A stretch of DNA of 29,726 nucleotides from a virus (Duplodnaviria > Heunggongvirae > Uroviricota > Caudoviricetes), in the IMG/VR virus record IMGVR_UViG_3300020059_000001, positions 78,679-108,404 of that record; one strand, given 5' to 3'. Positions 4,731 to 19,128 of the stretch are shown piece after piece (within the stretch, counting starts at the first letter, position 1; the number at the start of each line of letters is the position of its first letter). The translations under genes and the position numbers were made by a program. The notes under the pieces are model-generated. The model made no database searches. It worked only from the letters and a program-made list of their open reading frames with translations, and had not been told where the DNA came from.

Positions 4731-5592
4731 CGGCGTCTGTCTTTGATTCGGGTGGCACGTCGTAGGGCGGTGGATTGACGGCGCGTTCCCGCCAGTAGTC
4801 CTCCTCACCCAACCAGATTTCCTTGTGGTGGGTAGTTTGCACGCCGGTGTGGACGTACAGCGGGATGTCCAACGCTCCAGCGCGCATACAGAAGGAAAGG
4901 TCTTCGGATACGACCTGACCGGTCGTAGTGTTCGGCACCCGGTTGTACCAGATCGGCCCGAACTTCTCCTCGATCTGTTCGAACACCGACCGGTGGATGA
5001 GGATGCAAGCACTACCGGTACCGGCGCAACGGGTTATCTGGTTGATTGGATAGTCCCAACGGACCGAGAAACCCATCTGCTCGCCGGTCATTGTCCGCTG
5101 ATGTTCGCCGTGGACAATCGTCTCATCCGAGACGCCGATCTTGGCCCAGTCGAAGACCGTCGGAACTGCGGTACACCGCCAGCCGCCATGCTCATCGGCG
5201 GTCATCTCCCGCTGGCTAAAACAGAGCCCACCGACGATAGGACGTTCAACCGGGTCGGCAGCATCCATCAACCGGTCAAGGGTATCGGCAGCAAAACCCA
5301 TATCGGTATCCAACCAAAACAGCCAGTCGGCCTGATCCTCTTTCAAGAACGTAACAACAGACTTGTTACGTGCATCGATCAACCCGGCCGTACCATACTT
5401 GAGCGCAATGTAACCGCCGCGCATAACCCTAGCTTCATGGGTTATGTCCCAACCGATCATCTCAACCATCGAATGGTGCCACGAATACGACACATTCGTA
5501 TCGTGAACGTACGCTAAGACAACTGCACCATCACGTTCGTTGTCAGTGGCAGCTACCACCGGCACCGGCTCTGTTACTTCTTCCGTAAGCAA
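4723..5592 (-). CDS. GT-A fold (family 2-like) glycosyltransferase
   Basis: RN..V..FL, WLDTDMGF (DxD), GTGSACILIHR, SEDLSFC. TTG start after a GGAGG RBS is inferred. Confidence 0.82.
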   Translation of the reverse strand: MLTEEVTEPVPVVAATDNERDGAVVLAYVHDTNVSYSWHHSMVEMIGWDITHEARVMRGGYIALKYGTAGLIDARNKSVVTFLKEDQADWLFWLDTDMGFAADTLDRLMDAADPVERPIVGGLCFSQREMTADEHGGWRCTAVPTVFDWAKIGVSDETIVHGEHQRTMTGEQMGFSVRWDYPINQITRCAGTGSACILIHRSVFEQIEEKFGPIWYNRVPNTTTGQVVSEDLSFCMRAGALDIPLYVHTGVQTTHHKEIWLGEEDYWRERAVNPPPYDVPPESKTDADD

Positions 5593-7359: not shown

Positions 7360-8844
7360 CTAGGCATTTACGAGCAAACGGAACCCTAGGTCGTTGATCG
7401 AATTCCCACCGATCCTGGCGTACGCGAACCATCCGCGCTGGCCAGTAGGCATGCCGACACCAGTACCCGCTGTCGCCTGGTTGAATAGCTGTGGCACCAG
7501 CTCGACGCTCATTCCGCCACGGCGGGCTATAAGGTAATTCGAGAAATCGCCAACGATGGCAAGTCCGTCAGTACCGGTGGTTACCGCAGTAACGTCGGGC
7601 ATGTACGGCGACTCGTAGACGCCCTTCGCGAACAGCGAGTCTGTCCACTCTTCGGGCAGGTTGATCGTGTAGGCGTGGTAGACGTTCGAGGTGCCGAGCT
7701 GCCGGATCGCGTTGTTCACGCCGACGGACATGAGCCAGGACGCCTTGCGGCGGAACTTCTGCGGCAGCGCCTTCCATACCTTGTATGGGTCGGCGGAGCC
7801 GATGGTCGGTGCGGCGGTAACCACGACGCGAACGTTGGTGTTTGCCGATAGGGCGGTGAGGATGCCGCGGGGTTCGTTGGTGCCGGTGCCGCGGGTGAAC
7901 TTGTCGACGAGTAGTTCGTCGTAGCCCTGTGTTAGCAGGGTTGCCATCTCGTCGGCGAATGCTGGGTAGTCCTGCTGGACTTCGATGGTGAACGGGATGA
8001 AACCGCGGGCCATGTTGACGGTGACCGACGGCTGCGCCAGTACCGGTGACGCGTCGCCGACGGTGGAACCTTCCGTCTGGAACGTCCAGGTGACACCGGC
8101 GGAGGTGACACCCTTCCAGGCGTTGGTGTTGACCGTGACCTGCTTGGCGAGCTGGAGGAACGGATTACCCGACTCCTGCGCGGTCAAGATGATCGACGGG
8201 TCGATGAAGACCGGGATTCCGAAGCCACCGGCGGTGGTGGTGCCTTCGGCCATGATCCGGTATTCCTCCCATGCCTGCACTGCCCGTTGTTCTTCGGGCG
8301 TCAGGATGGGGTGGTTGCGGGTGGTCAGCTTCAGCCACGCCTCGCGGTAGTCGTCGTTTTCGGTGACGAGGATCCGGCGGGCGATGTCGGTGTCACGGCG
8401 GATCTGCCGTTCGACGTGGGTCTTCTGCTCGTCGGACAGGTGCATGGTGGTGGTGCGGTCACCGATGCGGCGTAGTGCCCGGTCCCGGGCTTCGTTGACC
8501 GACAGCCGGCGGACGTCGCCGTAGGGGTCGTCGGGCTGGGCACCGAGACGGCTGTACTCGATGGCCGACGGCCGCTTGCGGAGTACTTCGTTGACGGCGC
8601 GGTGTTCTTCGTACATTTCCAGGGCCCGCTCGTGGACTTCGAGCAGGATCTTCATGGCCTTCTTCTCCGGGTCGGAGAGCTGGCGCAGTTCGGCGGTCAC
8701 CGGGTCCTGGTGCAGATCCTGGATCTGCGCTTTGGTGACATCAATGATTTCGGAAATTTCGTCGGGGGTGCGGCCCCGGAGGTCTTCGAGAGTGAAGGTG
8801 CGCTTCTCGAAACGCTCCTCGGTGCCGGTCCGGTCCTCAGGCAT
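7360..8844 (-). CDS. Major capsid protein (HK97 fold) with N-terminal scaffold-like domain
   Basis: TTTAGGFGIPVFID, DKFTRGTGTNEPRGIL, AIVGDFSNYLI..R and WFAYARIGG; helical N-terminus; follows the protease gene. Confidence 0.93.
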   Translation of the reverse strand: MPEDRTGTEERFEKRTFTLEDLRGRTPDEISEIIDVTKAQIQDLHQDPVTAELRQLSDPEKKAMKILLEVHERALEMYEEHRAVNEVLRKRPSAIEYSRLGAQPDDPYGDVRRLSVNEARDRALRRIGDRTTTMHLSDEQKTHVERQIRRDTDIARRILVTENDDYREAWLKLTTRNHPILTPEEQRAVQAWEEYRIMAEGTTTAGGFGIPVFIDPSIILTAQESGNPFLQLAKQVTVNTNAWKGVTSAGVTWTFQTEGSTVGDASPVLAQPSVTVNMARGFIPFTIEVQQDYPAFADEMATLLTQGYDELLVDKFTRGTGTNEPRGILTALSANTNVRVVVTAAPTIGSADPYKVWKALPQKFRRKASWLMSVGVNNAIRQLGTSNVYHAYTINLPEEWTDSLFAKGVYESPYMPDVTAVTTGTDGLAIVGDFSNYLIARRGGMSVELVPQLFNQATAGTGVGMPTGQRGWFAYARIGGNSINDLGFRLLVNA

Positions 8845-10461: not shown

Positions 10462-13092
10462 TTACTTCTTCAGCGGTGGCCTCGGCTTAGGCGTTGCCTT
10501 ATTTGATGTGCTGCCACCAGCCGGATACGGCTTAGCCGTAGGACTGTCGTTAGCCGCACCAGGCGTCGGATTGTCCGACGACGGTGCCGGTGCATGCCCG
10601 GTCCCAGGTGCATTACCTCCGGGCAATGCGGGTTTGCCGCCACCGCCACCAACGGGTAGCACCGGCTGGCCACCGATTTCGTAAAGCTGAACGCTGACAA
10701 GCCCGGAGTGCTCCAACAAGCTGACGTCTTGGCCGATGACCGCGGCAACCGACGACTTCGGTGTGAATCCGTCTTTGACGTAGCCGGTGATGGTACTCAT
10801 TTTGATTTGTTCGATTTCGGCTGCGTCACGGGCGTCTTCACGCAGGATCGGCATGTCGGCGACGTCGAACCACAGTTCCGCATCGCGTGGCACGTTGATG
10901 ACGGGGGCTAGCGCCGCGCATAGGTCTTGCAGTGTCGGATAGACCCAGGAATCAGCGAAGATACGGCGGGCCATGCCGAAGTTACCGGCATTCAGTGAGC
11001 TACCGGCGAGACCTTCAGAAATACCCAACAATGGGGCCGGAACTCGTGACAAGAAGGCAATTCTGGTTTCCCCAGCTCCCTGGGTATTTTTGAAGTCGAG
11101 CTGCTTCAGGTCGCTACCGACGACTTTCGCGTCGGCGCCAGCAGTAAGATACAGGCTGCGATACGCATTCTTTACGCCAGCGTGTCGGTTCTCCATGGCA
11201 TCAACCATGGCGTCGAACTGTTCCCGCGATGCGGCGGTCAGTCCGTTGACGACCATGTTCGGGGTATTGTGGGTCAGAATAAAATCGTCGGTGACGTACA
11301 GGTGGTTGTCGGAGTCGACACCGATGCACTGTGCCGGCTTCCGGCCGACGTGTTCGACGCCCTGGATGTAGCGCCACCGGCCACCATGGAAGGTGGGTGA
11401 ATACATCGCTGCCTTGCGGGCTAGCCGGCAGGGGGTAATCCATTCCGGTAGTCGACTGATCAGTACCCGCCACTGGGCACGTGCCCGGTCTGTAGCTAGC
11501 CGGCTTGGCCGGGCCGACGCGATACCACCGAGGCCACCGACTAGTTCGGCAACCTGCTCGGCCAACATTTGACTGGTGCTGTCAAACCGGACCGTATTCG
11601 GCTGCCGCCGATCTACGGATCCGTCAGTGTCGATCAACCCCTGGAGCAGGGCAACTCGCTGTGTCACCGATGCACGTAGATACGGCTCCGGAATCGACTT
11701 TTCGTAGCCCAACTTGTCGAACAGGCCCAGTTCGCGGATCTGTTGGGTCAGCGGATTTGGGCGCGAGGCGCCAGGGCCCCGGAAGTAGAACTCGGCCCAC
11801 CCGCCACGGTTACGGCGGACGATCGTTACTCCGGCCGGCAGGAGCGTGGCGAGAACCTGCTGCTGTTCGTCAGCGTCACCAGTATGCGCGGCCATTGAAA
11901 CCCCGCCGCTACCCTTGCCGTTGTTGCGGAAACTACCGTCGCCGAGCAGCGATCCGAGCAGGTAGGGATCCAGTGGCAAATCGCCGGGGTCATCGAACTC
12001 GACCGGATCGACCAGCGGCACCGACCACTTGTAAGGGCCGCTGTCGTACTGGACGCCGTTGGCCACGAGCTGGGCCAGGGTACGGGTCCGGGTAACGCCG
12101 AGTTTGCGGTCATAGGCACTAGCGACGGTCCACAGGTGGTCGGCGGTGCACTCAGTTGATGTACCGCTGGAGAATGTCACCCGGTAGATGTCCTGGACAC
12201 CCTGCGGGTACACCGCGACGACCATCTTGGGCTTACCGTCGGAACCGATAACCCGATCACCAACGACAACCTCACCCATCGTCGTCCAACCGGCCGGCGT
12301 CAGAATCCCCGCGTCCAAGGGCATCGGTGCGCCGTTTTCGAAGAAGCGAAGCTTGTGTTCGGTGGCGGCTTTGTCGCCTTGGATTTCGCGGAGTGCTGGG
12401 GTGAGCCAGGACATGCCGATGCCGGCGGCTTCCGGGTCTGGTAGTGGGCTCCAGTGGGCCATTTCGCCGGGCAGGATGGTGTGCATCGGGTGTTGTGATG
12501 TGCGGAGGCCACCGTTTTGGTAGACGTAGCCGAGTAGTTCACCGTCGAGGGCGTGGGCGGCGTCGTCGGGTTCCTGGTGGGATCCGTAGACGAGGGCAAC
12601 CCAGTCGGGGCGTAGTACGCGTAGCCGGTCTGGTTGGCGGTAGACGTAGGCGTTGCCGGCGATGCCGGCGTGCCATTCCATTCGGGCGATCAGTTCACCG
12701 GTGGTGGCGTTTGTCCACGGCTTCTCTAGTGGGGCTAGCCGGGGGGTGCCGAACATGTGGCGGGGTTTCGACGATGACGGCAAGTTTCGGAATGTGAATC
12801 GGGCTTGGCTCAAAACTAGTGCGCGGACTAGTTGGGCGGCGAAGGCTGGTGGGCAGCTCCGTAGCGCGGCTGAGTAGCCGGGGAGGGTGCCGGCTATTTC
12901 GGATGATTTTGTGCCGTCGAGGGTTTGGATTAGCCCGTACGTACCAGGTCCGGTCACATATTGCGATCCGTTGTAGCCGAACGTTGTGGGGAGTAGGTAG
13001 TTGGAAATCCAATCGTCGGCGGAGAATCGCTCCTCTGTCTCAGTGCCCCTACGGCGAGCTAACTCCTTAGTGACGGCATCCAGTAGCCCCAA
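10462..13092 (-). CDS. Portal protein (HK97-like), intein-interrupted
   Basis: GNAYVY, G(M)SWL, FFENGA|TPNMVV extein junction, IAFLSRVPAPLLG; low-complexity C-terminal tail. Confidence 0.92.
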   Translation of the reverse strand: MGLLDAVTKELARRRGTETEERFSADDWISNYLLPTTFGYNGSQYVTGPGTYGLIQTLDGTKSSEIAGTLPGYSAALRSCPPAFAAQLVRALVLSQARFTFRNLPSSSKPRHMFGTPRLAPLEKPWTNATTGELIARMEWHAGIAGNAYVYRQPDRLRVLRPDWVALVYGSHQEPDDAAHALDGELLGYVYQNGGLRTSQHPMHTILPGEMAHWSPLPDPEAAGIGMSWLTPALREIQGDKAATEHKLRFFENGAPMPLDAGILTPAGWTTMGEVVVGDRVIGSDGKPKMVVAVYPQGVQDIYRVTFSSGTSTECTADHLWTVASAYDRKLGVTRTRTLAQLVANGVQYDSGPYKWSVPLVDPVEFDDPGDLPLDPYLLGSLLGDGSFRNNGKGSGGVSMAAHTGDADEQQQVLATLLPAGVTIVRRNRGGWAEFYFRGPGASRPNPLTQQIRELGLFDKLGYEKSIPEPYLRASVTQRVALLQGLIDTDGSVDRRQPNTVRFDSTSQMLAEQVAELVGGLGGIASARPSRLATDRARAQWRVLISRLPEWITPCRLARKAAMYSPTFHGGRWRYIQGVEHVGRKPAQCIGVDSDNHLYVTDDFILTHNTPNMVVNGLTAASREQFDAMVDAMENRHAGVKNAYRSLYLTAGADAKVVGSDLKQLDFKNTQGAGETRIAFLSRVPAPLLGISEGLAGSSLNAGNFGMARRIFADSWVYPTLQDLCAALAPVINVPRDAELWFDVADMPILREDARDAAEIEQIKMSTITGYVKDGFTPKSSVAAVIGQDVSLLEHSGLVSVQLYEIGGQPVLPVGGGGGKPALPGGNAPGTGHAPAPSSDNPTPGAANDSPTAKPYPAGGSTSNKATPKPRPPLKK
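11266..12327 (-). mobile_element. Class-3 intein with LAGLIDADG endonuclease in the portal (354 aa)
   Basis: Starts PMPLDAGILTP and ends ILTHN/T; WCT motif (DHLW, AQCI, THN); motifs LGSLLGDGS and LQGLIDTDG. Confidence 0.9.
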
Positions 13093-13105: not shown

Positions 13106-13301
13106 CCCGAGCTATCGTTTGTGGCAATCCGCCGGAAGGCGGAGGGCAGTGGCGGGGCGTGACAAGGCTCGGCGCGGCACGCGAAGGCGCGGCAGCAGCG
13201 GCGTGGCTGGGCTTGCGAGGGCGAGGCACGGCAAGGCCAGGCAGCAGTGGCGGGGCAAGGTTAGGCCTGGCACGGCAAGGCCAGGCGAGGCAAGGCCGGC
13301 T
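13106..13301 (+). repeat. GGY-NN pentamer array 2 (3 units) with leader; putative guide ncRNA
   Basis: TATCGT at 13113-13118; hairpin ccgcc-GGAA-ggcgg at 13129-13142; linkers at 13191 and 13240; ends GGCCGGCT. Confidence 0.9.
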
Positions 13302-13877: not shown

Positions 13878-14194
13878 GGTTCGGCAGCAGCGGCTAGGCG
13901 AGGCTAGACGGGGCGTGGCTAGGCGGGGCGAGGCAAGGCAGGGCAGCAAAGGCGAGGCACGGCAGGGCAGGGCAGGGTATGGCAGGGCACGGCTCGGCAG
14001 CAGCGGCGGGGCAAGGCAGGGCGTGGTCTGGCGTGGCGCGGCAGCACCGGCGAGGCAAGGCAAGGCGAGGCCGGGCGCGGCGTGGCAGCAGAGGCGCGGC
14101 ACGGCAGGGCGAGGCTTGCGACGGCACGGCATGGCAGCAGAGGCAGGGCGAGGTAAGCCGAGGCGAGGCATGTCCAGGCAAGGCACGGCCGGCT
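13878..14194 (+). repeat. GGY-NN pentamer array 3 (6 units), directly upstream of the RAMP gene; putative guide ncRNA
   Basis: Linkers at 13883, 13942, 13996, 14040, 14084 and 14133, followed by 10, 9, 7, 7, 8 and 9 pentamers; ends GGCCGGCT. Confidence 0.93.
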
Positions 14195-14273: not shown

Positions 14274-14888
14274 ATGGCTGAAAAGTTAGTTACTTTGGAA
14301 CGGCTTCAGCGCGTTGAGCTGGAGTTTGTGATTGTTGGTACGTCCCCGTTGATCGTCAATCGCTGGTCTGAGAAGGCGAAGGCGATGATGTTGGAAAAGC
14401 AGACGACGTCGGCGCGGGCAAAGAAAGACCCCAAGGACCCGGTCGCTAACTTCGAGGCGTCGAAGTACAAGTTCGACGACGGGCGGGACGGCTTCCCGGC
14501 TGTTTCGTTCAAGGCCTCGATCGTGCATGCCGCCCGGTTGTTCGAGGGCATTACGCAGGTACAGATCAAGCAGACCGTGGTGGTGCGCGGTGAGGGTGAA
14601 CACCAGTTGGTGCCGCTCGAATATGGTGCGGTAACGATGCGCGAGGACACGCCGCGGAACGCGTCCGGGGTGGCGGATCTGCGGTACCGGGCCCAGTATT
14701 GGCCGTGGTCTGCGACGTTGTATGTGCGGACCATCGCTGGGCAGCTCGACGAGGGGTCGCTGTTGGCTCTGGTCGACGCGGCGGGTATCGGCGGGGTTGG
14801 TGAGTGGCGTCCGACGTCGCCGAAGTCGGCGACCGGGACGTACGGCACGTTCCAGATCGATGATGCGTCTGCGGTGGAGCTGCGGTGA
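14274..14888 (+). CDS. Solo RAMP/Cas7-like protein (Vipr-like RNA-binding effector candidate)
   Basis: First strand FVIVGTSPLIV, FPAVSFKAS (cf. the RAMP PGSSLKG motif) and C-terminal Gly-rich loop GIGGVGEWRP...GTYGTF. GAGAGG RBS. Flanked by pentamer arrays. Confidence 0.8.
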   Translation: MAEKLVTLERLQRVELEFVIVGTSPLIVNRWSEKAKAMMLEKQTTSARAKKDPKDPVANFEASKYKFDDGRDGFPAVSFKASIVHAARLFEGITQVQIKQTVVVRGEGEHQLVPLEYGAVTMREDTPRNASGVADLRYRAQYWPWSATLYVRTIAGQLDEGSLLALVDAAGIGGVGEWRPTSPKSATGTYGTFQIDDASAVELR

Positions 14889-15580
14889 CGGTTGAGAAGG
14901 TCAACATCGCGGAGCTGGTCGAGGATATGGATTTCTACCCGCGACACAGTGTCGACGGCGCCCATGTGTTGGATCTGATGCGGGCTATCGCCGCCAATGA
15001 GACGCTTCCACCGCCGGTGGCTGACCGGAAGTCGATGCGGATCGTGGATGGGTGGCATCGGATCCGGGCCTACGCCAAGTTGCATGGCCCGTCGGTACTC
15101 ATCGACGTTGATCTGCGGAGCTACCGCAGCGACACGGAGATACTCAAAGACGCGATCCGGCTGAACGCGAGTCACGGCCGGAAACTCGACCAGCAGGACC
15201 GGACCCGTAGCGTGTTGCTGTTGCAGCGACGCAACGTTGACGTAAAGACGATTGCGGTGGTCTTACACACCACGCAGCAGCGGGTCGAGCAGCTGAAGTT
15301 GCGGTTCGCGTTGGTGAAGAACAACGGCAGCAGCGAGCAGCTACCGGTCAAACCGAACCTGTATCCGAAGCCGGGGGAGGAACCGCGGACATTGACGCCG
15401 GAGCAGTACGCGGTAGCGCAGGCGTCGTCTGGTCATCGGACTACACAGATCCTGACGCAGTTGGCCAACGAGTTGGAGGCCGAGTTGTGGAATGTCGACG
15501 ACGAGCTGATCCGTGAACGGGCCTGGCGGTTGGCTGACCTGATCGCGCAGCGGATCCCGCAGCCCGAGCCGGCGGCGTAG
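14885..15580 (+). CDS. ParB/Srx N-terminal-domain protein
   Basis: LPPPVAD...IVDGWHRIRAY signature, then AIRLNASHG and an HTH-like segment; GTGA overlap with the RAMP gene. Confidence 0.85.
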   Translation: MTVEKVNIAELVEDMDFYPRHSVDGAHVLDLMRAIAANETLPPPVADRKSMRIVDGWHRIRAYAKLHGPSVLIDVDLRSYRSDTEILKDAIRLNASHGRKLDQQDRTRSVLLLQRRNVDVKTIAVVLHTTQQRVEQLKLRFALVKNNGSSEQLPVKPNLYPKPGEEPRTLTPEQYAVAQASSGHRTTQILTQLANELEAELWNVDDELIRERAWRLADLIAQRIPQPEPAA

Positions 15581-15601: not shown

Positions 15602-15870
15602 GGTTCGGCAGCAGCGGTTGGGCACGGCAAGGCGAGGCTGGGCGCGGCACGGCGTGGCTCGGCAGCAGGGGCGAGGCGTGGCATGGCGCGGTAAGGCGTG
15701 GGATGGCAGCAGTGGCTGGGTCTGGCATGGCCTGGGTAGGCAAGGCAAGGCAAGGCAGCAGCGGCACGGCATGGCGGGGCAAGGCAGGGCGTGGCTCGGC
15801 GAGGTACGGCAGCAGCGGAGGGCATGGCTGGGCGAGGCATGGGCCGGCCCGGCGCGGCAAGGCGCGGCCA
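15602..15870 (+). repeat. GGY-NN pentamer array 4 (5 units), downstream of the ParB-like gene; putative guide ncRNA
   Basis: Linkers at 15607, 15661, 15705, 15754 and 15808, followed by 9, 7, 8, 9 and ~11 pentamers. Confidence 0.93.
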
Positions 15871-15875
15871 ACCGG

Positions 15876-15911
15876 GGCGGTGATGAACGGATGGTTCCGT
15901 TCATCACCGCC
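15876..15911. terminator. Perfect hairpin at the convergence of array 4 and terL; probable bidirectional terminator
   Basis: 16-bp arms ggcggtgatgaacgga / tccgttcatcaccgcc with a 4-nt loop; overlaps the terL stop codon. Confidence 0.75.
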
Positions 15912-18900
15912 AACTGCCGAAGAACTGCTGCGGCGGCGCCTCTGGCAGCCCCTTTTCGGTGGCGGTACCACGAGCCTCGTGGGCCAGAACAGCAGCTACC
16001 GCGGCGTCGATACGTAGCCCGTCACCGCGTTTCGCTAACTTCAGGTAGTGGGTGGCGATGCTGTTTTCGTCACCCGGTCGTGGCTTCTTCCGGGATCCCT
16101 TGACCAACACCGCGTTTTTGCAGTGTCGGGTAAGTATTTCGGAGTTGGCGTGGCTGATGTCGCCGGCAGCGAACGAGGTGTTGAACCGTTCGATCGCCTT
16201 GTCGAACCGTTGTTCGACGTTGGTTGGGAATTCGATGATCTGTTTCGGCCAGAGCGCCGACCACACATCCAAATAGTCTTGCCACCGGTACGGGTCGGCG
16301 AACATGAGGGTTACTTGGTAGGCGCCGAATACTTCCCGGACGGTTTGGTCGACTTCAACCGAGGGAACTTTCCAGTCTTCGTCGGCGTCTTTGGGTCGTT
16401 CCCAGGTTTTGAGGTTGAACAGTCGGCCGTCGGACATGCGGGAGGCGATCAGTGAGGTCGCGTCGCGGAGTTTGGAACCGTCGAAGCCGATCGCGATCGG
16501 CGTCTTCGGGGCCAGCAGGTCGTCGTAGGCGGCCAGGTCCCAGCGGATCGGGTCGACGAACACGGACTCGCCGACGACGATTTCGTTGAGGAAGAACCGG
16601 CGCCGGTCGGCTTCCAAATGTCGACTGGACCGGACTTCGTGCATGATGCGGCCTTTGATGTTGACCCAGCCGCCCTGTTCACGAGCCGAGTCACCGTATT
16701 GGCGTAGCAGCTCGGCGTACAGTTCGTCGTCGTCGGTGAGGTCGTCGACTCGATGTGAGTCGACGGTGTCGAGGAGGACCCGTTTCGTACCGGTGTTCTT
16801 CGACAGTGCCGGGTCGGCGCCGTCGCGTGGCACACGGACGGAGTCGTCGGAATCGGCGGTGACCTGGGCTTCGGAACCCTCGGTGGGATCCCAGGCGTTT
16901 GTTAGTTCAAGCCACCGGCCGTCCATGCCGGCGACGTTCCGTTTGACCGCGCCGCAGACCCGCCGGTATCCACCCTGGAGGGTAAAGAGGTGGGAATTGT
17001 GGGTAGGAATCCAACCTTCACCGGCAAGGAAGAGGCTGTCGACTGCATCGACGGTAATACAGCGAACGGGTACCGAGTCCACCGGCTCGATCGAGTCAAC
17101 TGTCAACCAGTCATGTCGATCAGCCGCGACAGGTACCCGGAATTCGCGGCCGTCGGCGACCATCTCTCCCGTTGTACGAACTTTCGGCAGTGCCGCGGAA
17201 CCGTTGACGCGGGTTTCCCAAAGGTGTCCGTCGCTGGCAACGATGCTCGTTCCGTCGGCGAAGGTAAGCCGGTAACAAGTACGGTCGTTCTGAACCTCGG
17301 TAGCACCGATTACACAGACTATGGAGCCGTCGCGACCAAAGATTCGGTCGCCGACCGAGATGTCGCCCATCGTGGTCCAGCCCGTCGGCGTCGGCACCGG
17401 CGTATCAAGGGCAAGGGCTTCCGTGATGGTGACAAAACTCAATGGAGCGCCGAGCCGGGCCTTGGCGCTGGTGGTAACAGGTTCGATGGTGCCGCCGGCC
17501 GGCAGGTTGATACGGGTTTGGCCACAGTCCATTCCATCGACGTTGATGAGTGGTCCGAGGCGGATCATGTCGAGGAGCGGGCGCCAGGTGTTGGAGGTGT
17601 TGTGCGTTGGGACAGCGCGACGGCCAGCTAGGAACAAGTGGTCGGTGGTGTTGATGCCGACGCACTTGACCGGTACTGATTCGACGGACTCGACCGAAAC
17701 GATCTGCCGGTAGTCGCCCAATCGACGCTGCGGGCGGGTGGACTGCCTGCTGGCCTTGTGGGTCAGCTGGAACACGGGTTCTTCGCGGGGAACGAAGAAG
17801 ATCCGCCAGGCGGCGGCCGTGCGGTCGAACCGCATGTTCCAGCGGTACCCGAGTGAGGTCAGCAGCTCGCCGAGGCCGTCGATGATGGCCCGGTTGATGT
17901 TCGTAAAGCCGGCACGGCCGTTGACTTCGATGTGGCCGTCGGAATCCATCAGCCCCTGCAACAGGGCCAGGCGTTGCTTGTGACCGGCTCGCAGGTAGGC
18001 GGCAGGGATGTGCTTGCTTCCCAGCACGTCCAGGTCGCGTAGCCGCTCCCGGAGTGTGCGCAGCCGCTCCGGCGCCGGCCGGTCTGGGCCGCCGGTGCGG
18101 TCCTTGGTACGCCGGCACGGGCCGCACGCCTGGCCGACCATGTCGATTCCGTATTCGTGACCCCAGGGGCATAGGCCCTGCCGGCGGCGGATGCGGAGAA
18201 GCCCCGTATTGCCAACACCTTGGCCCCAGGCGATGTCTTCGAACGGCAGGGTAAGGGGAGCAATGATGGCTTCCACCTCGGCCTTGAGGCGGAGGTCGAA
18301 GGTGATGGACGCATCGCTGGCCGAGCCGTCACCCAGCCAAAGTCCGAGAATGTATGGGTCAACTGGCAGGTCGTCCCCGTCGGGAAGATCCCATACGACA
18401 CCCGCGGGTACCCGGTACCGTGCTCGGAATCCCTTGTCCGATGGAACGCGGTATGTGGCGGCTAGCTGTTCGGTCGTCAGCGTGACCGTACGGGTCCGTG
18501 TCCGGTTCCGGTCGTCGCGGTGGGTAACGTCTTCGACGGTCCAGCTGTGTGCTGCGGACGCCGTTATCCGCTCGCCGTCAGAAAACGTCACGGCATAGCA
18601 GCGTTCACCGAGTAACACCGGGGTTTCATGGACGACGTATGCGGTGCTGCCGTCCGCGGCGAAGATGCGGTCTCCGCGGCGGAGGTCACCCATTGTCGTC
18701 CAGCCGTCAGGTGTGGGCACCGGTGTATCGAGTGCCAACGGCTGTTCTTCTGAGGTGCCGAGGCAGACGATCAGCGGTGTTGGGTAGGGGGCGCCGACTG
18801 GTTCGCCGGTTTCGTCCCAGCCGTCGAAGCGGGTCGGGCCGAGCGCTTCGGCGAGGATGATCGCGGCTGCTAGTGGGTCTTTGCCGTGTTTCTGGGCCCG

Positions 18901-19128
18901 CCGGAATTGGCCGCCGGTGTAGATGAGCGCGTCGGGGGCTGGCCACGGCGCGGCGTACGGGTACAACCGATAGTAATGAAGAAGAAACAAGTATTGTTCG
19001 TCGGTCAGTTTGTACTGCTGGCCGCGGCGGTAACCGTCGGGGATGACGACGTGATTCTCGATCCATTCGGCTACCCGGTAGCCGAGGGTTGGGATTTCGC
19101 CTTCATATTGGGGGCCACGCCAGGGCAT
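15904..19128 (-). CDS. terL: Terminase large subunit with two inteins
   Basis: Walker A variant RRAQKHGKDP; SEEQ|TSN and VTITE|SHL junctions; nuclease motifs IGFDGSK..D, ADPYRW and IDAAVA. Confidence 0.93.
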   Translation of the reverse strand: MPWRGPQYEGEIPTLGYRVAEWIENHVVIPDGYRRGQQYKLTDEQYLFLLHYYRLYPYAAPWPAPDALIYTGGQFRRAQKHGKDPLAAAIILAEALGPTRFDGWDETGEPVGAPYPTPLIVCLGTSEEQPLALDTPVPTPDGWTTMGDLRRGDRIFAADGSTAYVVHETPVLLGERCYAVTFSDGERITASAAHSWTVEDVTHRDDRNRTRTRTVTLTTEQLAATYRVPSDKGFRARYRVPAGVVWDLPDGDDLPVDPYILGLWLGDGSASDASITFDLRLKAEVEAIIAPLTLPFEDIAWGQGVGNTGLLRIRRRQGLCPWGHEYGIDMVGQACGPCRRTKDRTGGPDRPAPERLRTLRERLRDLDVLGSKHIPAAYLRAGHKQRLALLQGLMDSDGHIEVNGRAGFTNINRAIIDGLGELLTSLGYRWNMRFDRTAAAWRIFFVPREEPVFQLTHKASRQSTRPQRRLGDYRQIVSVESVESVPVKCVGINTTDHLFLAGRRAVPTHNTSNTWRPLLDMIRLGPLINVDGMDCGQTRINLPAGGTIEPVTTSAKARLGAPLSFVTITEALALDTPVPTPTGWTTMGDISVGDRIFGRDGSIVCVIGATEVQNDRTCYRLTFADGTSIVASDGHLWETRVNGSAALPKVRTTGEMVADGREFRVPVAADRHDWLTVDSIEPVDSVPVRCITVDAVDSLFLAGEGWIPTHNSHLFTLQGGYRRVCGAVKRNVAGMDGRWLELTNAWDPTEGSEAQVTADSDDSVRVPRDGADPALSKNTGTKRVLLDTVDSHRVDDLTDDDELYAELLRQYGDSAREQGGWVNIKGRIMHEVRSSRHLEADRRRFFLNEIVVGESVFVDPIRWDLAAYDDLLAPKTPIAIGFDGSKLRDATSLIASRMSDGRLFNLKTWERPKDADEDWKVPSVEVDQTVREVFGAYQVTLMFADPYRWQDYLDVWSALWPKQIIEFPTNVEQRFDKAIERFNTSFAAGDISHANSEILTRHCKNAVLVKGSRKKPRPGDENSIATHYLKLAKRGDGLRIDAAVAAVLAHEARGTATEKGLPEAPPQQFFGSWR
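16996..17418 (-). mobile_element. Class-3 mini-intein in TerL (141 aa)
   Basis: Starts ALALDTPVPTP and ends IPTHN/S; GHLW, VRCI and THN (WCT); no endonuclease. Confidence 0.9.
17599..18741 (-). mobile_element. Class-3 intein with LAGLIDADG endonuclease in TerL (381 aa)
   Basis: Starts PLALDTPVPTP and ends VPTHN/T; AHSW, VKCV and THN; LGLWLGDGS and LQGLMDSDG. Confidence 0.9.

What the first reader, a model, noticed from the sequence alone, without database searches (positions are those of the whole stretch)
15602..15870. NN strings may encode codon positions 1-2, making targeting blind to the wobble base
Inference, assuming the target is read as NN-skip-NN-skip. Several units then read like plausible peptides: array 4 unit 4 ac-at-gg-aa-ag-gt-tc-ga-ac = T-I/M-G-K/N-R/S-V-S-E/D-T; array 3 unit 3 = G-K/N-R/S-V-L-V-A; array 5 unit 2 begins E/D-A-L-K/N-E/D-I/M-E/D. 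Skipping every third base would stop targets escaping by synonymous mutation. TA-rich units (array 1 unit 2, array 5 unit 3) look more like AT-rich promoter DNA. This could be pareidolia, and I found no match in this window by eye.
Basis: inference. Interest (0 to 1): 0.7.

Follow-up and report, generated by a model that had tools for sequence, protein, structure and literature searches.

The report
VIPR guides; wobble skip already published
This repeat tract is one of the guide-RNA arrays of a soil phage's VIPR system (a CRISPR-related DNA silencer described in 2026); its "pair two bases, skip the third" code is already published, and no real target of these particular guides could be found to confirm the wobble alignment here.

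Summary
The array is real: five GGY-NN units at 15607-15870, beside a Vipr gene (14274-14888; same PHROG family as SUSP1 Vipr, hhalign 96.5%, Cas7-like fold) and a ParB-like gene. The interpretation (1-nt skip that lands on the wobble base and blocks synonymous escape) is the published VIPR rule (bioRxiv 2026.04.26.720920 fig. S10; 2026.10.15.759431). This scan has also noted it on at least 20 other genomes. For this locus it stays unproven. No target above shuffle level turned up in the phage's own genome, in 2.5 Mb of related phage DNA, in exact scans of IMG/VR (3 guides) and metagenomes (1 guide), or in 160-200 Micromonosporaceae genomes (5 guides). The peptide readings carry no weight, because any NN string translates. 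The proposed test also has the wrong null: 38 of 56 chance hits in GC-rich host genomes already skip the wobble base, not one third. NN composition fits codon positions 1-2 far better than 2-3 or 3-1, but no better than uniform. The promoter-like claim for TA-rich units is not supported. Verdict: new member of a known system, low interest.

The parts
15607..15870 (+). vrRNA array 4: five GGY-NN guide units in staggered layout, joined by GGCAG-CA-NN linkers
15616..15660 (+). unit 4.1, 9 pentamers; no target found
15670..15704 (+). unit 4.2, 7 pentamers
15714..15753 (+). unit 4.3, 8 pentamers; the most AT-rich NN string (13 of 16)
15817..15870 (+). unit 4.5, irregular 4-nt first repeat then 10 pentamers
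15876..15911 (.). 16-bp perfect hairpin closing the array, overlapping the terL stop; possible terminator or 3' tail (inference)
   Evidence: sequence
14274..14888 (+). vipr gene, 204 aa RAMP-fold guide-binding protein
14885..15580 (+). ParB-like accessory (vap-slot) gene, 231 aa, overlapping the vipr stop
   Evidence: phrog_1033 E 4e-12
13151..13298 (+). vrRNA array 2, three units, upstream of and antisense to the portal gene

Best explanation
The tract encodes VIPR guide RNAs (vrRNAs) of a soil actinobacterial phage, probably of Micromonosporaceae. Shown here: the GGY-NN grammar, the staggered linkers, the adjacent Vipr homolog with the GGY-binding residues, and no self-target. Inferred from the SUSP1 system: Vipr protomers coat each RNA, one per pentamer, flip out GGY, and pair the NN bases with double-stranded DNA while skipping one target base per repeat, which silences transcription. 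The 3-nt target period comes from protein geometry. When a target lies in a gene, guides whose skip falls on codon position 3 last longer because synonymous changes do not break them, so many, not all, guides are expected to be wobble-aligned, on either strand. Which genes these guides hit is unknown; the most likely targets are rival phages, prophages or satellites of the same host.
For: Vipr identity: same PHROG family (phrog_4652) as SUSP1 Vipr, E 3.6e-30 for this protein and 1.4e-96 for SUSP1. The profile hits PDB 36pp at E 2.7e-6. hhalign 96.5%, E 8e-10, aligning SUSP1 R138/D177/W178/R179 to R139/E177/W178/R179 (roles). Foldseek top hits are Csm3/Cas7-type RAMPs. The rule is published with in vitro, in vivo and structural support. 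NN composition fits a sense/antisense codon 1-2 model much better than 2-3 or 3-1: log-likelihood -711 vs -761 and -823 for this genome's 30 guides, and -1802 vs -1909 and -2029 for 61 guides of relatives. The true base labelling ties for first among 32 GC-preserving relabellings. No skip-1 self-target, as published.
Against: No real target found anywhere: summed best scores over 2.5 Mb of related phage DNA were 395 vs 398.9 +/- 3.4 for shuffled guides. The codon 1-2 model barely beats a uniform model (-711.2 vs -712.6). The guides are not a random draw of codon 1-2 sites: first NN base C 11% vs 23 +/- 3% expected, A 42% vs 23%, GC 45% vs 58%. The neighbour-order test shows no dicodon signal (pooled z -1.2, where true codon 1-2 strings give +2.4 +/- 0.8). 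The strand-mixture signal weakens after collapsing repeated NN (p about 0.04, similar for other phases). The skip length has been tested directly only for SUSP1 (type II), 21% identical.
Confidence: 0.7

Rival explanations
1. Same VIPR system with a 1-nt skip, but most of these guides are not tracings of coding DNA. They are a repertoire reshuffled by pentamer duplication, deletion and recombination, shaped by RNA constraints (C avoided after GGC because GCC pairs with GGC), or aimed at non-coding DNA. The peptides are then pareidolia.
For: C is depleted at the first NN base in all 19 loci of very different GC (0-21%). No dicodon order signal. Mycobacteriophage F1 arrays differ by single-pentamer duplications and swapped ends. 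No hits above shuffles. Array 4 folds slightly worse than its shuffles (z +1.45), consistent with selection against structure. Solo vrRNAs of satellites target non-coding REP elements.
Against: Adjacent identical NN are not clearly in excess here (23 vs 17.7, p 0.12). A 9-NN core is kept across four F1 phages, which suggests selection on a fixed target. Failure to find targets is expected for an uncultured soil phage with exact-match scans only. Natural targets in other clades are mostly coding and wobble-aligned.
Confidence: 0.2
2. This Vipr clade (staggered arrays, ParB-like partner) reads targets with another gap (0, 2 or 3 nt), so the codon argument does not apply.
For: Only about 21% identity to SUSP1 Vipr; SUSP1 H17 aligns to N29 here and the equivalent of K33 is unclear. 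One guide (14049-14083) matches the phage's own genome 14/14 with a 2-nt skip.
Against: That single match has a rough chance expectation of about 0.07 over all guides and skips (my estimate). No skip length is enriched over others in the own genome or related phages. Thumb and G-loop residues are conserved. The paper's 1-nt-skip target searches also found hits for types III and V.
Confidence: 0.07
3. The tracts are non-functional low-complexity repeats or spurious ORFs unrelated to the neighbouring gene.
For: Long alternative ORFs run through them. There is no expression data here.
Against: A fixed scaffold with variable NN, the same linker grammar in nine arrays, and arrays beside most Vipr homologs in unrelated hosts.
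Confidence: 0.03

Closest known systems
VIPR systems; type II of Escherichia phage SUSP1 (Vipr AVU07_agp039, PDB 36pp; bioRxiv 10.64898/2026.04.26.720920 and 10.64898/2026.04.26.720927)
   Different: Units are joined by 1-nt-staggered linkers rather than each having a pseudoknot tail; the accessory gene is ParB-like; nine arrays are spread over a 108-kb genome; the host is an actinobacterium; targets are unknown.
SUSP1 VIPR versus F5 satellites (bioRxiv 10.64898/2026.10.15.759431)
   Different: There the target (a satellite recombinase) is identified and tested; here none was found.
Staggered vrRNA arrays (fig. S18 of 10.64898/2026.04.26.720920); VIPR loci of mycobacteriophage cluster F1 (Gorge, ByChance, Quico, Brocalys; Vipr 57% identical) and Gordonia phages ODay and Pipp
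   Same: Last repeat GGCAG overlaps the first base of the next unit.
   Different: Here the first repeat of each unit is GCA-NN rather than GGC-NN. I could not see the figure, so the VIPR type number (I-VII) is not assigned.
Class 1 CRISPR Cas7/Csm3 backbones
   Same: RAMP fold and thumb-mediated periodic interruption of guide-target pairing.
   Different: CRISPR skips every sixth base of a contiguous spacer. There is no cas1/cas2 or CRISPR array in this locus.

Membership tests
VIPR system | Stand-alone RAMP protein of the Vipr family (RRM core, thumb, G-loop) | tested here: met
VIPR system | Minimal locus: vipr plus one accessory (vap) gene, no CRISPR array or cas1/2 | tested here: met
   two-gene insert between portal and terL; ParB-like partner
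VIPR system | Flanking YNNGG (GGY-NN) tandem repeats with variable NN | tested here: met
   7-12 repeats per unit, partly below the 9-16 given for type II
VIPR system | Conserved GGY-binding residues (SUSP1 H17, R138, D177, W178, R179) and skip-pocket K33 | tested here: inconclusive
   R139, E177, W178, R179 match; H17 aligns to N29 and K33 has no reliable partner
VIPR system | No self-targeting under the 1-nt skip rule | tested here: met
   best own-genome matches are at chance level; highest 15/18 and 12/14, same range as skip 0 and 2
VIPR system | Natural targets match with a 1-nt skip | tested here: inconclusive
   no match above shuffles
VIPR system | Skip base at codon position 3 in natural coding targets | tested here: inconclusive
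   no validated target; composition favours positions 1-2 over other phases but not over uniform
VIPR system | vrRNAs are expressed, bind Vipr and silence targets | not testable with these tools
VIPR staggered-array architecture | Successive vrRNAs overlap by 1 nt | tested here: met
   9-nt linker shifts the 5-nt register by one base; its last two letters vary; processing sites not shown
CRISPR-Cas class 1 | CRISPR array of repeats with contiguous spacers and several cas genes | tested here: not met
   only pentamer arrays and one RAMP gene in the locus

The most novel reading that the evidence does not exclude
In this actinophage clade the staggered arrays work as a combinatorial guide repertoire made by pentamer slippage and recombination, under an RNA-level ban on C after GGC, with an extra targeting dinucleotide hidden in the linker. 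Many guides would then not be copies of any gene, which would bear on the open question of how vrRNAs are acquired.
Probability: 0.15. Interest if true: 0.5.

Novelty: new member of a known kind. Interest (0 to 1): 0.15.

Why it matters
If true for this locus, it extends a published rule (1-nt skip aligned to the wobble base) to a soil actinophage with nine dispersed arrays; that is confirmation, not discovery. The useful by-product is a caution on method: in GC-rich hosts, A-rich gapped patterns land on codon positions 1-2 by chance about two times in three, so wobble alignment of predicted VIPR targets needs a composition-matched null, not one third.

Tried and rejected
Own genome, skip 0/1/2, both strands: nothing above chance; near each array: nothing. 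Exact IMG/VR scans: unit 4.4 gave 0 hits; array 2 unit 3 gave 2 hits in 31-34% GC phages, both with the skip off the wobble position; unit 4.1 (8 NN) gave 11 hits, about the chance number, with no convergence of other guides. Metagenome scan of unit 4.4: 14 hits, mostly 37-55% GC, mixed frames, none extended by the linker NN. Micromonosporaceae genomes (host guessed from an IS transposase 80% identical to a Micromonospora protein): unit 4.4 gave 11 hits at 2 mismatches and none better; array 5 unit 2 hit housekeeping-type genes (read by eye as exonuclease VII large subunit and response regulators; not scanned against Pfam); unit 4.1 gave one hit; array 1 unit 2, tested as a possible serine-recombinase motif, gave 23 hits against more than twice as many controls; array 1 unit 3 gave two 17/18 hits in what reads like a molybdopterin oxidoreductase. 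Neighbouring-gene idea (lead from other genomes): 108 terL and portal loci plus capsid and vipr loci gave no excess. The best candidate, array 2 unit 3 versus a terL variant (17/22; own copy 13/22), has p about 0.5. Protein-level scans: nothing. Proxy test with 61 guides of related VIPR loci against 1.5 Mb of actinophage DNA, plus one mycobacteriophage Gorge guide against IMG/VR, 251 genomes of a PPE-positive genus (taken to be Mycobacterium) and 26 phage records: no enrichment. Shared 4-NN runs between guides: 2 pairs vs 0.4 expected, p 0.07.

Full report
Observation. The window is the last 29.7 kb of a 108,404-base phage contig of 62% GC. The stretch 15602-15870 is an array of five units of GGY-NN pentamers joined by a 9-nt linker, GGCAG-CA-NN, and closed by a 16-bp hairpin at 15876-15911. 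The genome has nine such arrays with about 30 guides; four lie outside the window, two of them on the minus strand. The stretch holding arrays 2-5 is the same in three independent assemblies (one base differs in 20.6 kb). The last two linker letters vary, so each unit probably starts with a degenerate GCA-NN repeat that overlaps the previous unit by one base. Mycobacteriophage relatives show the same one-base overlap with GGC-NN.

What it is. The 204-aa gene at 14274-14888 is a Vipr. It falls in the same PHROG family as SUSP1 Vipr. A profile of its relatives hits the SUSP1 Vipr structure 36pp at E 2.7e-6. hhalign gives 96.5% and pairs the GGY-binding residues R138, D177, W178 and R179 with R139, E177, W178 and R179. 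Its predicted model (pLDDT 76.5) matches Csm3/Cas7 RAMPs. The next gene is ParB-like. Most close Vipr relatives carry similar arrays, including cluster F1 mycobacteriophages at 57% identity. The host is probably a Micromonosporaceae member; this is an inference from an IS transposase in the genome whose named relatives, at about 80%, are Micromonospora.

What is known. Yoon et al. (10.64898/2026.04.26.720920) tested 0-3-nt gaps and confirmed the 1-nt skip by binding and GFP repression. They report skip bases overwhelmingly at the wobble position, on both strands, and argue that this defeats synonymous escape. Cryo-EM shows a one-base pocket for the skipped nucleotide (10.64898/2026.04.26.720927). 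A later preprint (10.64898/2026.10.15.759431) quantifies it across 119 satellites. Earlier notes of this scan report the same idea on at least 20 other genomes; I treated those as leads only.

Testing it on this locus: targets. I looked for gapped matches in the phage's own genome, in 2.5 Mb of related phage DNA gathered through vipr, capsid, terL and portal, by exact scans of IMG/VR (three guides) and metagenomes (one guide), and in 160-200 Micromonosporaceae genomes (five guides). Nothing exceeded shuffled controls: summed best scores were 395 against 398.9 +/- 3.4. The exact hits were mostly in low-GC, unrelated contigs, with mixed frames and no second guide converging. Both exact hits of array 2 unit 3 read as a tidy peptide in a frame that is closed, while the real gene uses another frame, which shows directly how the pareidolia arises. 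The best-looking candidate, that same guide against a terminase variant of sister phages (17/22, own copy 13/22), has p about 0.5. A proxy test with 61 guides from related loci also found nothing. These negatives do not refute the rule: the phage is uncultured, most guides could not be scanned in the large collections, and those scans need exact matches.

Testing it on this locus: composition. NN pairs fit codon positions 1-2 (sense or antisense, chosen per guide) much better than 2-3 or 3-1: log-likelihood -711, -761 and -823, with the same order in relatives. They fit a uniform model about as well (-712.6), so this may reflect only that NN are AT-richer (45% GC) than any codon position. The first NN base is C in 11% and A in 42% of repeats, against 23% and 23% for simulated wobble-skipping guides. 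The C deficit recurs in all 19 loci examined whatever their GC, which points to an RNA-level constraint (inference: GGC followed by C creates GCC, which pairs with any other repeat). The per-guide strand signal (z 3.1) falls to p about 0.04 once repeated NN are collapsed, and other phases behave similarly. An order test finds no dicodon signal (pooled z -1.2 against +2.4 +/- 0.8 expected; little power for this genome alone), though phase 1-2 is the least negative of the three in the pooled set. Composition is therefore compatible with the wobble reading but does not establish it.

From codon-position models, 65% of chance coding hits of these guides should already skip position 3. Among 56 chance-level hits in Micromonosporaceae genomes, 38 (68%) do so, judged by flanking GC periodicity. 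An excess over one third would prove nothing. The remark that TA-rich units look like promoters is also unsupported: their AT content is within the spread of all guides, and array 1 unit 2 has fewer host-genome hits than its reversed control.

Mechanism and verdict. Most likely these are vrRNAs that load Vipr and silence rival mobile elements by gapped pairing with a 1-nt skip. My estimates: VIPR membership about 0.95; 1-nt skip for this clade about 0.9; most coding targets wobble-aligned about 0.7. The skip length is set by the protein, and wobble alignment is a selected property of individual guides, not an encoded peptide. The locus is a new member of a known system, the idea is already published, and I could add no target. 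Interest 0.15.

Noticed in passing
window 15607-15615 and the other linkers: The last two letters of the GGCAG-CA-NN linker vary (8 different pairs among 22 linkers in this genome), so they may be the first read dinucleotide of the next guide.
   Followed up: partly
all arrays; loci L002-L041: C is rare at the first NN base (0-21%) in all 19 VIPR loci examined, from 50% to 71% GC; codon usage does not explain it.
   Followed up: partly
window 5558-5583, minus strand: Array 3 unit 4 (14049-14083) matches the phage's own DNA 14/14 with a 2-nt skip; probably chance (rough expectation 0.07).
   Followed up: no
window 13249-13298 versus terL at 16207-16239 (minus): Array 2 unit 3 matches a terL variant of sister phages 17/22 in sense, wobble-aligned, and the phage's own copy 13/22; not above shuffles.
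   Followed up: yes
L040:3607-3853, L126, L127, L128: Cluster F1 mycobacteriophages carry VIPR arrays, partly under genes annotated as hypothetical proteins. They share a 9-NN core and differ by single-pentamer duplications and swapped ends; no target found.
   Followed up: partly
L040:4001-4580 (Mycobacterium phage Gorge gene 54): Gorge vipr shifts frame after about residue 128 (tblastn match in two pieces), and its annotated gene runs into the next ORF.
   Followed up: no
G000 59574-60395 (L060:175-993), outside the window: DDE transposase gene inside the phage genome; named relatives at about 80% are Micromonospora or Micromonosporaceae, a host hint.
   Followed up: partly
window 15904-19128 and 10462-13092: terL appears to hold two inteins and the portal gene one (LAGLIDADG hits; intein-like ends seen by eye).
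   Followed up: no
G000 7689-7733 and 11675-11768, minus strand (outside the window): Two further short vrRNA-like arrays on the minus strand, about 80 kb from vipr.
   Followed up: partly
window 14358-14360 (Vipr residue 29): Asn where SUSP1 Vipr has the G1-binding His17; closest relatives share Asn, more distant ones have His.
   Followed up: no
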